A stretch of DNA of 64,000 nt, taken from positions 49,910,001 to 49,974,000 of the forward strand of contig OX597830.1 in assembly GCA_951406725.2 (NCBI GenBank). The letters are read 5' to 3'. Source of the DNA: Octopus vulgaris (lineage: Eukaryota). This document shows positions 4,153-60,072 of this stretch, piece after piece (the stretch's first letter is position 1; the number at the start of each line of letters is the position of its first letter). The translations under genes were made by a program, and so were the position numbers. The notes beneath the pieces were generated by a model that ran no database searches, was not told the origin of the DNA, and saw only the letters and a list, made by a program, of their open reading frames with translations.

Positions 4153-4666
4153 ATATATATACTCTGAGCACTATTGCTTTGTAGCATATATATATATATA
4201 TGCTATAGTAGAAGACACTTGCCACGCAGTGGAAATGAACCCGGAACCATGTGCTTGGTAAGCGAGCTACTTACCACACAGCCAATCCGGGCCAAATCCT
4301 GAAGGTACTGCAATAACAGGCCAACCCGTGGAAAAGGAAGAAAAAACCCCCTTCGCCTCCTAAAAATTCAGTCTAATATCGATGCTTCCCAAATAGGAGT
4401 GGCGTCGTATGTATTAAAATGTTAAGAGTAGATATTAGACTTCGATCTTAGCCATAAGACTGAGAAGCAATATATATGTATATATGTCACAAAGTGAAGT
4501 TCTTAAGCACAGAATCATATCTGTACTTCTCTTTCTCTGTGTGCGTGTTTGTGAGTGTGTGTGTCTATATGATTGATTGATTGATTGATTCTAGTTTCAG
4601 CTCACGAGCTGTGGCCATGCTGGGGCACCGGTGAATATAGATATATGGATGTGTATGTGTGTGTGT

Positions 4667-40679: not shown

Positions 40680-42130
40680 AAGTGATTTTTGATGCAAAAG
40701 GCCATAAACGACCCACATCTTTGAATCAGGTGGAATACTTCTCATTTGATTTACCTGGATTTTGCAGATGACGTTGCCCTTTTCAGCAAATCAGAACAGT
40801 CGTGGCAGATGTTGACCAACAGCTTAGCAAATAACGCAGCTAAAGATGGTCTAAGGATCAGCTAAGAAAAGATGGTCATGCCAGTGAAGGAAGAAAAGCC
40901 TATGAAGACACAAGTGCAGATAAATTTGAGGGGTTCATCTACTTGGGTAACAGCATTTCCAAAAAGGGTTAAACAGAGCAAGATGTGCTGTGCAGAACTG
41001 GAAAAGCAGGTTCTGTTTTTAGGAGGCTCAGAAGCATCTGGCAATCTAATCACATGACTTTAAGAAGCAAGATAGTTTTGTACAGCTCTTTGATCATCCC
41101 ACTTGGCATCTATGCTAGTAGAATGTGGAAGATGATAGCAGGACTCATCAATAAGATGCATTCCACTAGAGGTGACTTCAATTACTTAACATCTCTTGGC
41201 AAGACAGAATGACCAATGACAAAATCTCTGGGAGAACCAAGCTGATAACCATTTAGCATCAGAGTGAAAAATCATTGTCTGAGGTTACTTGAACCAGTCT
41301 TTAGAATACTATCAACAAAGGCGGTGAGCTGGCAGAAACGTTAGCACGCCGGGCGAAATGCTTAGCGGTATTTTGCCTACCGCTACGTTCTGAGTTCAAA
41401 TTCCGCCGAGGTCGACTTTGCCTTTCATCCTTTCGGGGTCGATAAATTAAGTACCAGTTACACACTGGGGTCGATGTAATCGACTTAATACCTATGTCTG
41501 TCCTTGTTTGTCCCCTCTATGTTTAGCCCCTTGTGGGTAATAAAGAAATAGGTATTTTGTCTGCCATTACGTTCTGAGTTCAAATTCCGCCAAGGTCGAC
41601 TTTGCTTTTCATCCTTTTGGGGTTGATTAAATAAGTACCAGTTATGCACTGGGGTCAATATAATCAACTTAATCCCTTTGTCTGTCCTTGCATGTCCCTT
41701 CTCTGTTTAGCCCCTTGTGGGTAGTAAAGAAATAGGTATTTCATCTGCCATTACGTTCTGAGTTCAAATTCCACCGAGGTCAGGTTTGCCTTTCATCCTT
41801 TCAGGGTCGATAAATTAAGTACTAGTTACGCACTGGAGTCAATGTAATCGACTTAATCCCTTTGTCTGTCCTTGTTTGTCCCCTCTATGTTTAGCCCCTT
41901 GTGGGCAATAAAGAAATAAGAATACCATCAACAAGATACATGAAACCCTGCTTTGACTGGAAGGTGGAAAAAGGAAATGTAAATTCCCATTAATAACATG
42001 GAAGTGGACAGTTCTGAAGGATTTTGAAAGAAGAGGAGTTGAGCTGAGAGGATGCCAAATCCCTTACAGAAGACTGCAGAGGGTGAAGATCTTTTGTTGC
42101 TGCCAATATTCCATAGGGAATAAGATGAAC
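40680..42130 (+). mobile_element. Degenerate RTE LINE (RT C-terminal half) interrupted by a SINE trimer
   Basis: LDFADDVALFS catalytic motif at ~40755; RTGKAGSVFRRLRSIWQSNHMTLRSKIVLYSSLIIP. Confidence 0.85.
41319..41918 (+). mobile_element. SINE family A trimer within a single 16 bp TSD
   Basis: TSD agaatactatcaacaa (41303-41318) and agaataccatcaacaa (41919-41934); units rejoin at aaagaaata|ggtattt. Confidence 0.92.
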
Positions 42131-48997: not shown

Positions 48998-49660
48998 ACA
49001 GAAACCAAATGGTGGTGCTGCAAGTGATAGAGGCCTTCCAAGTGGATATCACTTGGCAACTGTAGATTCACCTACTGCCCGTGAACCTTGTAACTTGTCC
49101 AGCTCAGCAGAACTTGTGATTTTGGTATATTCTCTGATCATCTTGTTCACTCCATTCTGTTCTTGCATTACCTCATTTTGTATACATTCTTGCAATGTAT
49201 ACAGAAACCAAATGGTGGTGCTGCAAGTGATAGAGGCCTTCCAAGTGGATATCACTTGGCAACTGTAGATTCACCTACTGCCCGTGAACCTTGAAACTTG
49301 TCCAGCTCAGCAGAACTTGTGATTTTGGTATATTCTCTGATCATCTTGTTCACTCCATTCTGTTCTTGCGTTACCTCATTTTGTATACATTCTTGCAATG
49401 TATACAGAAACCAAATGGTGGTGCTGCAAGTGATAGAGGCCTTCCAAGTGGATATCACTTGGCAACTGTAGATTCACCTACTGCCCGTGAACCTTGTAAC
49501 TTGTCCAGCTCGGCAGAACTTGTGATTTTGGTATATTCTCTGATCATATTGTTCACTCCATTGTGTTCTTGCGTTACCTCATTTTGTATACATTCTTGCA
49601 ATGATATTCCTAGCATGGATCTTTCCAAAGCCCTTTGCTTGGAGTATCTGTCCAAAACTT
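48998..49660 (-). mobile_element. RTE LINE fragment triplicated as a 203 bp tandem repeat
   Basis: Units start at 48998, 49201 and 49404 and are nearly identical. Minus strand reads QRALERSMLGISLQECIQNE / AGQV.RFTGSR* / VAK*YPLGRP. Confidence 0.85.
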
Positions 49661-51947: not shown

Positions 51948-52087
51948 GAAACTGCCTGCATCAGTTGTTGACTGCCATGACACTGCATCCCTTAAGGCCC
52001 TCATACTTTCCAAAATCCGCCGAAACTACACCTGATTATACATACACTTTAGATGAGTTCTAGTGCACCTGAGCACTGTACACAATG

Positions 52088-52122
<35 letters not shown>
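51948..52122 (+). mobile_element. CR1 3' fragment
   Basis: KLPASVVDCHDTASLK, 3'UTR and (TTA)n tail. Confidence 0.8.
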
Positions 52123-54615: not shown

Positions 54616-54679
54616 CTCTACCTACTCTATACAGAGAACACCTCTCTCTAATCTATCTATCTATCTATATATATATATA

Positions 54680-54996
54680 TACAGAGATGTACTCACATAG
54701 CAAGTGATTTGATCTGAGATCGTGTGCTGGAACAAAAATAATTGCAGTGTGGGAGGTGTTTGTAAGCCATTTAAGAAACACACAAAAGCCGTTCGATTCA
54801 CTTCAACATTTAAGTTTAATTTGTCAAAATATTTTCGTTGCTAAAATCCGCGACCTGTTCACTGACAAAAATCCGTGCAGTGCGGATTTTAGCGACGAAA
54901 ATATTTTGACAAATTAAACTTAAATGTTGAAGTGAATCGAACGGCTTTTGTGTGTTTCTTAAATGGCTTACAAACACCTTCCACGCTACAATTGTT
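54680..54996 (-). mobile_element. PLE pLTR remnant with a near-perfect 115 bp inverted duplication
   Basis: Arms 54737-54851 and 54882-54996; (TA)n flanks; carries the HHR at 54820-54869. Confidence 0.8.
54820..54869 (-). ncRNA. Type I hammerhead with compensatory G3:C8 core (GUGAACA)
   Basis: Minus strand: tttgtca GTGAACA g gtcgc-ggatttta-gcaac GAA aatatt T tgacaaa. 7 bp stem I; the inverted arm keeps gcgac (perfect helix II); helix III is the aatatt palindrome. Confidence 0.75.
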
Positions 54997-55046
54997 ATAT
55001 ATATATATATATATACATACATGTATGTATATATGTATATATATGT

Positions 55047-55430
55047 GTGTGGCCATGTGGTTCGAATGGTGGATGAACACATGCTGAAACAGCTGTTTTA
55101 TGGTGAGCTCGCAGAGGAGAAACGCTATTGGCATAAACCTAAAAAAAGGTTTAAGGACGGCATCAGGGCTATTATGAAGTCACTTGGGGTCGATTCAGAA
55201 TACATAGAAACCCTTGCTTCGGGTCGAGTTGGATGGAGAACAAAGGCGTGGAGTGGAGTGAAAGCATTTGAAGAGGCCAGGATAACACAAGTAAGACTCA
55301 AAAAGAGATCTAAGGAAGAATGCTTATGATTGAGAAGGTGAATGACACTGACCTTTTTGTGTGCACAGTCTGTGACAGACCATGCCTCCTGGAAACTGTT
55401 CAGAGATGTGCAACCAAATGAATACCCACC
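55047..55430 (+). mobile_element. RTE LINE C-terminal fragment
   Basis: CGHVVRMVDEHMLKQLFYGELAEEKRYWHKPKKRFKDGI...RVGWR...GVKAFE, then an FVCTVCDRPC zinc-finger relic. Confidence 0.9.
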
Positions 55431-55436
55431 ATCAGG

Positions 55437-55868
55437 TATAATAATAATAATAAACATTGTGTACAGTGCTCAGGTGCGCTACAACTCATCTAAAGTGCAT
55501 ATATAATCAGGTGTAGTTTCGACGGATTTCGGAAAGCATGAGGGTCTTAAAGGATGCAGTGTCATGGCAGTCAACAACTGACGCAGGCAGTTTATTCCAT
55601 GCTTCAGCAACTCTGAGCATGAAGAAATGTTTCTGAAAGTCATGGGAGCTGTGTTGTTTTCTGACTTTGTAGGCATGTCCACGTGTGTTAGACACATGGA
55701 GATCAAAAACGGTGTTCAGTGTTGTTATTGGTGAGGTGGTTGACAACTTTGTGGGTGTTTACCAAGTCCGTCGCCAGACGCCGGAGCTTCAGTGAATCCA
55801 TGCCCAGGGAAACAAGGCGCTCAGAATATGGCAGGTGTCTGATGGAGGGTATGCGTTTGGTTGCACGT
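55437..55868 (-). mobile_element. CR1 3' fragment
   Basis: RATKRIPSIRHLPYSERL...TRGHAYKVRKQHSSHDFQKHFFMLRVAEAWNKLP. Confidence 0.9.
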
Positions 55869-56355
55869 ATCTACCATACTCTGAGCACCTTGCTTCCCTG
55901 GGCATTGATACATAGAAGCTCCGATCCCTGGCAACTGACTTGGTAAAAATTATTAACCATCGTGCCAACAACCACCTTGTGAGCACCTTTTTTGAGCTCC
56001 ATGTGTCTAACGTACATGGGCATGCCTACAAGGTCAGAAAACAGCACAGCTCCCATCCATGACTTTCAGAAACATTTCTTCACATTCAGAGTTTCTGAAG
56101 CATGGAACAAACTAAACTACCTGCATCAGTTGTTAGTTGCCGAAACATTGCACCCTTTAAAATCTCCATGCTTCCTGAAATTCGCCAACACTACATCTGA
56201 TATCCCACCTCCCTTCCATACGCATGCGCACATGTATATTATGACTCATACGCTGTTCACTTTCCTGACTTTTGTACATAATTCTATGTCCTGTACATGC
56301 ACCTGTGATGAGTTGTAGTGCACCTGAGTGCTATACACAATAATTTCCTTATTAT
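55869..56355 (+). mobile_element. CR1 3' fragment
   Basis: LPYSEHLASLGIDT*KLR...HDFQKHFFTFRVSEAWNKL plus 3'UTR. Confidence 0.9.
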
Positions 56356-59071: not shown

Positions 59072-59657
59072 TAAATGCCATAAGACATTTTGTCCAGAAG
59101 GGGTAGCTATTTGAGAGAGATTTAGCTACTATTTTCTGAGTGACTGAGTAAAACTTCATAATAATGGGAGGCTACAGCTTTCAACTAATAATAACTCTAA
59201 TTTTGAGAAGACCTGATATTTTGTGGGATGGGGGCAAATTAATATCAACCTCATTAAGAGGAAAAGCAAACTCAAGCTCAGTGGAACTCTAACCCTGAGC
59301 ATAAAGACAGACAAAATGCTAAAAGCATGTTAACAAGTCTATCAGCTTGCCACCTTAATAAAGTTATTATGGGGTTAACTAGATCAACCTTAGTATTCAT
59401 TGACTCCAGGGAGATTAAAAGGAATGATCAACCATCAATGAAATATGAACTTAGAACATAAAGGGTCGTAAAATTGTATGTCCATCACTTTTGCCAAACA
59501 ACTCAGTGGTTGTAGTAGTAGTGACTTCTTAAAGAGGCAAAAGGCCAGGATTTTGGGGAGGGTATAATTTGGATTATATGGACCCAGGGAAAATGAAAGG
59601 TAAAGTTGATCTTAGTGAGATTTGAACTTAAATTATAAAAAGCTGTAACTAGATACC

Positions 59658-60072
59658 TATTTCTTTACTAGCCACAAGGGGCTAAACACAGACAGGACAA
59701 ACAAGGACAGTTAAACGGATTAAGTTGATTATATCGACCCCAGTGCATAACTGGTACTTATTTAATTGACCCCGAAAGGATGATAGGCAAAGTCGACCTC
59801 GGTGGAATTTGAACTCAGAACGTAGCAACAAACGAAATACCTATTTCTTTACTATCCACAAGGGGCTAAACACAGAGGGGACAGACAAGGACAGTTAAAT
59901 GGATTAAGTCGATTACATCGACCCCAGTGCGTAACTGGTGCTTAATTTATCGACCCCGAAAGGATGAAAGGCAAAAATGAAAATTGGCGGAATTTGAACT
60001 CAGAATGTAACGGCAGACAAAAAACGGCTACGCATTTTGCCTGGTGTGATAATGTTTCTACCAGCTTGGCGC
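59658..60072 (-). mobile_element. SINE family A dimer inserted in an older family A copy
   Basis: TSD ctgtaactagatacc (59643-59657) and ctgtaactaaatacc (60073-60087). Confidence 0.88.

What the first reader, a model, noticed from the sequence alone, without database searches (positions are those of the whole stretch)
54820..54869. Natural G3:C8 base-swapped hammerhead (GUGAACA)
Seen on the minus strand: UUUGUCA-GUGAACA-G-GUCGC(ggauuuua)GC(A/G)AC-GAA-AAUAUU-U-UGACAAA. All helices are in register, and both partners of the core 3-8 pair are exchanged relative to CUGANGA. The adjacent inverted arm preserves the perfectly pairing GCGAC. Established: C3-G8 is a Watson-Crick pair in the active HHR, and compensatory swaps partly rescue activity. 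Inference: a selected variant, also unusual for its UUU triplet, all-A/U dimer helix III and extra G after A9, and invisible to canonical motif searches. I cannot confirm it is undescribed.
Basis: partly seen in the sequence, partly recalled or inferred. Interest (0 to 1): 0.8.

Follow-up and report, generated by a model that had tools for sequence, protein, structure and literature searches.

The report
Transposon hammerhead with swapped core pair
This 50-base stretch is one of thousands of copies of a hammerhead-shaped RNA motif carried by a Penelope-type jumping gene, in which two paired core letters are swapped compared with sister elements; the parent element's version likely still cuts itself slowly, but cutting is untested and this truncated copy is probably dead.

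Summary
The motif is in the sequence as described. It is the minimal type I hammerhead in the terminal repeat (pLTR) of an endonuclease-bearing Penelope-like retrotransposon, about 55 bases before the ORF start. G3:C8 is the family norm: 6,609 of 7,244 pattern matches genome-wide, with no C3:G8. Three related families in the same genome carry C3:G8 in the matching motif, with compensatory changes in all three helices, so the swap is derived. The extra base after A9, the A/U palindrome and U17 are normal for Penelope hammerheads; only G3:C8 is unusual. Against a strictly needed catalyst: 227 copies have an unpairable G3:G8 core, and 93 of 97 unbiased copies were inserted with the cut site intact. 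The window copy is 5'-truncated, has a helix II mismatch, and its inverted arm would bury the ribozyme. Eight literature searches found engineered G3:C8 (partly active) and natural U3:A8, but no natural G3:C8; key papers were unreadable. This scan noted G3:C8 cores before on other DNA (phages, Penelope-like tails; unchecked). New variant of a known kind; cleavage untested.

The parts
54820..54869 (-). Minimal type I hammerhead motif with G3:C8 core pair
54863..54869 (-). Helix I, 5' strand
   Evidence: pairs with 54820-54826
54856..54862 (-). Core strand G3-U4-G5-A6-A7-C8-A9
   Evidence: family norm
54855..54855 (-). Extra nucleotide (G) between A9 and G10.1
   Evidence: invariant in the 17 aligned copies of four families; an extra base here is typical of PLE hammerheads
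54837..54854 (-). Helix II (5 bp, C-A mismatch in this copy) and 8-base loop II (54842-54849)
54834..54836 (-). G12-A13-A14
   Evidence: invariant in alignment A1
54828..54833 (-). Six-base A/U palindrome, predicted to form helix III between two copies
   Evidence: duplex on its own is marginal, -0.2 kcal/mol
54826..54827 (-). Predicted scissile bond, after U17 (54827)
   Evidence: by hammerhead numbering; cleavage untested
54820..54826 (-). Helix I, 3' strand
54680..54878 (-). 5'-truncated copy of the Penelope-like element's pLTR
   Evidence: 93.5% identical over 199 bases to the pLTR in front of the ORF in L118
54678..54770 (-). First 31 codons of the element's ORF (ATG at 54770), with a stop in this copy
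   Evidence: N-terminus matches the sister family's by eye
54680..54736 (-). One-sided 'tail' present on the main copy only
   Evidence: one-sided tail described for PLEs in PMC8557442
54882..54996 (+). Inverted, more deeply 5'-truncated second copy without the G3-A9 strand; forms a 115-bp inverted repeat with 54737-54851
54996..55044 (.). (TA)n microsatellite flank, likely insertion target
   Evidence: TA-rich flank also at 54648-54679

Best explanation
This is a 5'-truncated genomic copy of the hammerhead motif in the terminal repeat of a Penelope-like retrotransposon family whose norm is G3:C8 instead of C3:G8, and in the parent element it likely still works as a slow ribozyme that would need a second copy or the element's protein to cut after U17. 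Shown: motif, copy number, parent ORF with C-terminal GIY-YIG, position before the ORF start, canonical-core sisters, pairing-preserving changes. Inferred: the swap keeps the 3:8 Watson-Crick pair that places the 2'-OH of nucleotide 8, so chemistry survives at a reduced rate; two tandem pLTR hammerheads pair through the palindrome; cutting would remove the first ~58 bases of the element RNA or release unit-length RNA from tandem transcripts. Most short genomic copies, this one included, were made from uncut RNA whose 5' end likely lay about 22 bases before G3. This particular copy is probably inactive.
For: Parent: ORF of 995+ residues with an RT-type YVDD motif, a C-x3-C-x2-C linker and a Pfam GIY-YIG hit above cut-off, flanked by this motif. 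Sister family B (54% protein identity) and families C and D have C3:G8 in the matching motif. In the 17-copy alignment 6 of 15 pairs change on both sides, including 3:8; 0 of 500 shuffles reach the score, and slid controls give 26-44% paired cells against 83% (about four lineages, not 17 events). Between older and younger sub-families the ORF differs at 29% of synonymous sites, yet 0 of 42 structured positions differ in majority against 4 of 8 in loop II (Fisher p = 0.0003). A common helix I variant is a G-U wobble (10 of 94 copies). Engineered C3G/G8C partly rescues a PLE hammerhead, which needs its protein (PMC11167929 passages). U17 avoids the G3-C17 trap implied by PMC3884650 (passage, data not shown there).
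Against: No cleavage data. G3:G8 copies number 227 against 22 C3:C8, two are full-length elements, and they are as old as old G3:C8 copies (8 vs 34 copies, p = 0.85): an unpairable core also spread. Most listed copies of sister family B have C9 instead of A9. The 52 bases downstream of the motif are also conserved (3 differences; p = 0.25 against the structured part), so the constraint is not clearly specific to the ribozyme. Only 1 of 97 copies starts at the cut site. In the one tested PLE, hammerhead mutants did not affect insertion in vitro. The swap is a single event; two changed bases pair by luck about one time in three or four.
Confidence: 0.6

Rival explanations
1. Hammerhead-derived but no longer a working catalyst: the fold and core letters are kept as a protein-binding, promoter-proximal or template signal in the first 70 bases of the element RNA, and G3:C8 is a near-neutral outcome.
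For: 227 G3:G8 copies including full-length ones; C9 in the commonest sister sub-family; 93 of 97 copies span the cut site and 43 of 97 start 19-26 bases before G3; downstream UTR nearly as conserved; hammerhead mutants do not block insertion in vitro.
Against: All other catalytic positions are invariant across families whose proteins are 54% alike while the flanks barely align; the lineage that went on to the young burst has the paired core; no cut-site read ends were seen for the canonical, active Anolis hammerhead either, so uncut templates do not show inactivity.
Confidence: 0.33
2. The letters are fixed by protein coding or are a by-product of the inverted repeat, and the hammerhead look is incidental.
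For: The motif overlaps a 115-bp inverted repeat; monomer folding is not significant; Rfam gives no hammerhead hit.
Against: The ORF starts about 50 bases after the motif, and loop II is 8 or 9 bases long in different sub-families; the inverted repeat is made of two element copies, not of the motif's helices; Rfam also missed the C3:G8 sister motifs in L130, L181 and L190; canonical homologues sit at the same place in sister elements.
Confidence: 0.03

Closest known systems
Minimal type I hammerheads of metazoan Penelope-like elements (Cervera and de la Pena 2014, PMC4209133; main text parts 1-2 of 4 and supplement file 2 parts 1-2 of 3 read)
   Same: Sits in the pLTR; extra base between 9 and 10.1; G10.1-C11.1; longer helix II; short palindromic helix III; mostly present as solo or opposite-strand copies by the thousand. 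The Drosophila virilis row also shows a six-base A/U palindrome and the oyster row a UUU triplet, as read from machine-extracted text.
   Different: G3:C8. Of the 56 representatives in their Fig. S3, 53 have C3, 3 have U3, none G3; the extra base is G in 1 of 56.
Natural U3:A8 core covariants (Perreault 2011, PMC3088659, passages; Schistosoma min-HHRs in PMC4209133)
   Same: Natural compensatory exchange of the 3:8 pair.
   Different: U3:A8 needs two transitions and keeps pyrimidine 3/purine 8; here two transversions reverse the pair and put a pyrimidine at the general-acid position.
Engineered C3G/G8C double mutants (Anolis Poseidon hammerhead, PMC11167929, passages and section 3 part 1; review PMC8495972, passage)
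   Same: Identical core; reported partly active, single mutants inactive.
   Different: Laboratory constructs; here the core is the norm of a family with over 6,600 copies.
EN+ Penelope-like elements with the CX2-5CxxC linker (Neptune and Nematis clades; PMC8557442, passages)
   Same: RT then C-terminal GIY-YIG, cysteine linker, partial tandems, inverted 5'-truncated copy, one-sided tail, (TA)n targets.
   Different: Clade not placed by a tree here; the thumb and RT motifs look Nematis-like from recall only. The tail is about 57 bases, longer than the 30-40 described.

Membership tests
Hammerhead ribozyme (type I) | Core U4, G5, A6, A9, G12, A13, A14, A15.1-U16.1, H17 in register | tested here: met
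Hammerhead ribozyme (type I) | Consensus letters C3 and G8 | tested here: not met
   G3/C8 in 6,609 of 7,244 matches; 0 of the 20 doubly changed copies is C3:G8
Hammerhead ribozyme (type I) | Watson-Crick pair between positions 3 and 8 | tested here: met
   C-G in 11 and G-C in 4 of 16 distinct rows, 1 unpaired; by sequence only
Hammerhead ribozyme (type I) | Three helices around the core with pairing-preserving variation | tested here: met
   changes on both sides in helices I, II and III across four families; outer helix I pairs are not kept outside family A
Hammerhead ribozyme (type I) | Match to an Rfam hammerhead model | tested here: inconclusive
   no hit, but the C3:G8 sister motifs were missed too
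Hammerhead ribozyme (type I) | Site-specific self-cleavage after N17 | not testable with these tools
   needs an assay; 1 of 97 genomic copies starts at the site, which is uninformative
PLE minimal hammerhead | Located in the pLTR on both sides of the RT-EN ORF | tested here: met
   L118 has it before and after the ORF
PLE minimal hammerhead | Extra base between 9 and 10.1; G10.1-C11.1 pair; palindromic 15.2-16.2 | tested here: met
   criteria
PLE minimal hammerhead | Activity as a dimer or with protein help | not testable with these tools
   the six-base duplex is marginal alone
EN+ Penelope-like element | Single ORF with RT and C-terminal GIY-YIG | tested here: met
   GIY-YIG 25.5 bits over cut-off 22.6; RT motif seen by eye; Pfam RVT_1 did not hit this ORF
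EN+ Penelope-like element | Partial tandems, inverted truncated copy, one-sided tail, microsatellite targets | tested here: met
Neptune/Nematis clades | CX2-5CxxC linker before GIY-YIG | tested here: met
   C-x3-C-x2-C in family A
Nematis clade | RT phylogeny with reference elements | not tested
   no reference sequences fetched

The most novel reading that the evidence does not exclude
A successful animal retrotransposon family crossed a fitness valley in its ribozyme core, from C3:G8 through a mobile but catalytically dead G3:G8 stage (still seen as about 200 fossil copies) to a rescued, active G3:C8, helped by U17. The genome then holds a dated natural series of live, dead and rescued hammerheads on one element type, which would show that PLE self-cleavage is dispensable in the short run but selected in the long run.
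Probability: 0.25. Interest if true: 0.68.

Novelty: new variant of a known kind. Interest (0 to 1): 0.43.

Why it matters
If it cuts, it is a natural, family-wide example of the reversed 3:8 pair that I could find in print only as an engineered rescue mutant, and it shows that motif searches fixed on CUGANGA or U3:A8 miss whole high-copy families. The genome also supplies natural controls on related elements (C3:G8/A9, C3:G8/C9, G3:G8, G3:C8), which makes the open question of what Penelope hammerheads do directly testable. It does not change the known chemistry, and the locus itself is one probably inactive copy among thousands.

Tried and rejected
Rfam gathering and E-value scans gave no hammerhead for this motif or its C3:G8 sisters: uninformative. 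Monomer folding is not significant. No run on record as RNA was listed as a holder: no evidence either way on expression. The four laid runs were contigs, so they show no starts, ends or strand; among the 40 variant rows shown none fell in the 42 structured positions, but 31 rows were hidden and the organism labels may not be separate species, so I give it little weight. A pile-up of 5' ends at the cut site was looked for and not found (1 of 97, at an inversion junction where helix I microhomology explains it). Coding constraint on G3/C8 was rejected. A C3:C8 sub-lineage was not found (22 copies, background level). The direction of the G3:G8 lineage could not be settled: the ORF tree nests two such elements among old G3:C8 copies (support 86 and 93, distant root), the ages do not differ, and G8 occurs on several flank types. 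A search of earlier scan notes by sequence found nothing. Not readable in the library: Lunse et al. 2017 (PMC5785218), Przybilski and Hammann 2007, Hammann et al. 2012, Seehafer et al. 2011, Martick and Scott 2006, and supplement file 1 of PMC4209133; any of them could report natural G3:C8. No protein homologue search or structure prediction was run.

Full report
1. Observation. Folding alone is unremarkable (z = -1.2) and Rfam finds nothing. A relaxed descriptor that allows any Watson-Crick 3:8 pair hits the window once, here, and 1 of 60 simulated windows.

2. It is a repeat. A 141-base query gave 958 candidates in the window's own 2.8-Gb genome. A 19-base pattern over helix I, core and helix II with positions 3, 7 and 8 left free has 7,244 matches. 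Of these 6,609 are G3/C8, 410 keep G3 only, and 20 change both, none to C3:G8. To avoid selecting on the core I took 99 of the first 100 listed places of a downstream anchor (7,909 matches), which gave 97 distinct copies: G3 in 73 of 75 and C8 in 80 of 81 that reach those positions.

3. The parent. [quoted passage not shown] In L118 the motif stands both before and after the ORF. The ORF starts about 55 bases after the predicted cut, at window 54770, so G3 and C8 are not coding. The window copy shows the anatomy described for Penelope-like elements in PMC8557442 (passages): a 5'-truncated copy (54878-54680), an inverted and more deeply truncated copy at its 5' end (54882-54996), a tail on one side only, and (TA)n flanks. 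The inverted copy lacks the G3-A9 strand. A minus-strand transcript through both arms is predicted to form one long hairpin that takes up the 3' half of the ribozyme, so this copy is probably inactive.

4. Sister families. The RT search also found family B (54% identity over 815 residues), which has a hammerhead at the same place before its ORF, with C3:G8. A C3:G8 pattern has 5,291 matches against 10 for the control and adds types C and D. Type D (one copy, L181) shares the inner helix I and U17 with the window's family and lies behind a related endonuclease fragment; type C was tied to the group by its downstream sequence, not by an ORF hit. In a 17-copy alignment, with a structure I specified, 83% of cells pair, and 6 of 15 pairs change on both sides, including 3:8, one pair of helix II and one of helix III; slid controls pair at 26-44%. 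These rows stand for about four lineages and one 3:8 event. With C3 in 53 of 56 published PLE representatives, G3:C8 is the derived state.

5. Is it under selection? Older and younger sub-families differ at 29% of synonymous and 5% of non-synonymous ORF sites over 538 codons. Between 22 older and 106 younger pLTR copies (many picked through the core or by similarity), none of 42 structured positions differs in majority, against 4 of 8 in loop II (p = 0.0003) and 3 of 52 downstream (p = 0.25). The structure is therefore constrained relative to its loop, but not demonstrably more than the rest of the pLTR. Against strict need: G3:G8 has 227 copies where the mirror change C3:C8 has 22, so an unpairable core was itself amplified; two full-length G3:G8 elements nest among old G3:C8 copies (18 copies, distant outgroup) and G3:G8 copies are of the same age as old C8 ones. 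Whether they are a relic intermediate or a back-change is open. Most listed family B copies have C9.

6. How it likely works. From established hammerhead chemistry, G12 is the base and the 2'-OH of nucleotide 8 the acid (PMC6155905 passage), with nucleotide 8 paired to nucleotide 3 (PMC3884650 passage); G8C is rescued in part by C3G (PMC8495972 passage). In the one PLE tested, the double mutant cut in part, cutting needed the ORF protein, and mutants did not affect insertion in vitro (PMC11167929). PLE minimal hammerheads cut poorly and as dimers. I infer the same here: slow, dimer- or protein-assisted cutting after U17. A G3-C8 variant was reported more active with G17 than with C17 (data not shown there), which suggests a G3-C17 trap; this family has U17 in 93 of 93 copies while most B and C copies have C17. 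This fits, but D and some B copies have U17 with C3, so it is at most permissive. The genomic copies show what was used as template: 93 of 97 span the cut site, 43 of 97 begin 19-26 bases before G3, and 1 begins at the site. With internal RT initiation downstream of the ribozyme, as shown for the Anolis element, these short copies would be products of uncut RNA copied to its 5' end; an excess of G just before that end hints at a cap. Cutting, where it happens, would remove the cap-bearing first ~58 bases or release unit-length RNA from tandem transcripts. These steps are inferred.

7. What is known. The extra base after A9, G10.1-C11.1 and the palindromic helix III are listed hallmarks of PLE minimal hammerheads; the supplement shows a six-base A/U palindrome in Drosophila virilis and a UUU triplet in oyster, as read from extracted text. 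Natural 3:8 covariation in the papers I could read is U3:A8 only. Eight searches and term look-ups in PMC7229834, PMC6155905, PMC6962438, PMC6765202 and the 2026 retrozyme preprint showed no natural G3:C8 and no description of this family's ribozyme. Five relevant papers were not held, among them the survey of small PLE-associated hammerhead variants (Lunse et al., seen only as a reference), so absence from print is not established. Earlier notes of this scan report G3:C8 cores in two phage windows and in three Penelope-like tails; I did not check them, and they are not support.

8. Verdict. Real feature; hammerhead homologue in a Penelope-like element with high confidence (about 0.95); still catalytic in the parent about 0.6. 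It fails the consensus letters at 3 and 8 but meets the pairing they stand for. New variant of a known kind, interest 0.43. Its value lies in copy number, canonical sisters and a G3:G8 lineage in one genome, which make a clean test set.

Noticed in passing
L129-L131, L175-L204 (family B): A second high-copy PLE family (ORF 1,311-1,312 residues) whose commonest listed hammerhead has C9 instead of A9; other copies keep A9. The C3:G8 pattern allowing A9 or C9 has 5,291 matches over families B, C and D.
   Followed up: partly
L121, L134, L031 and 227 genome places: G3:G8 sub-lineage of the family, including full-length elements; origin (intermediate or back-change) unresolved.
   Followed up: partly
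L118:2395-2425; corresponds to just beyond window 54878: 5' ends pile up 19-26 bases before G3 (43 of 97). Among 29 copies stopping there the next base is G in 17, C in 9, T in 3, A in 0, where the element has C or T: suggestive of a copied cap at an initiator-like start, though some G can come from the inverted arm. The same place also looks like a branch point, pyrimidine tract and 3' splice site.
   Followed up: partly
L223, L225, L262, L264, L269, L289: Six unlinked copies share the same inversion junction, so a palindromic two-copy unit may itself have been amplified.
   Followed up: no
window 55506-56201: Nested long inverted repeats (arms 76-91% complementary), foldback- or MITE-like; 55452-55542 is also inverted against 52000-52090.
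   Followed up: no
window 55050-55310 (+): Open frame that reads like the C-terminal end of a LINE ORF (label from recall).
   Followed up: no
window 4282-4471 (-): U2 snRNA match, 67.9 bits, with altered stems: possibly a pseudogene.
   Followed up: no
window 41367-41918 and 59653-60009: 184-base tandem units that I recall as an octopus SINE. With the 2.8-Gb genome and microsatellite load this suggests an octopus host; recalled, not tested.
   Followed up: no
window 48998-49603: Three near-identical 203-base tandem copies (98% match).
   Followed up: no
L095:1927-4365; L120, L128: An unrelated PLE ORF (RVT_1 hit), and canonical CUGACGA min-hammerhead candidates of another family.
   Followed up: no
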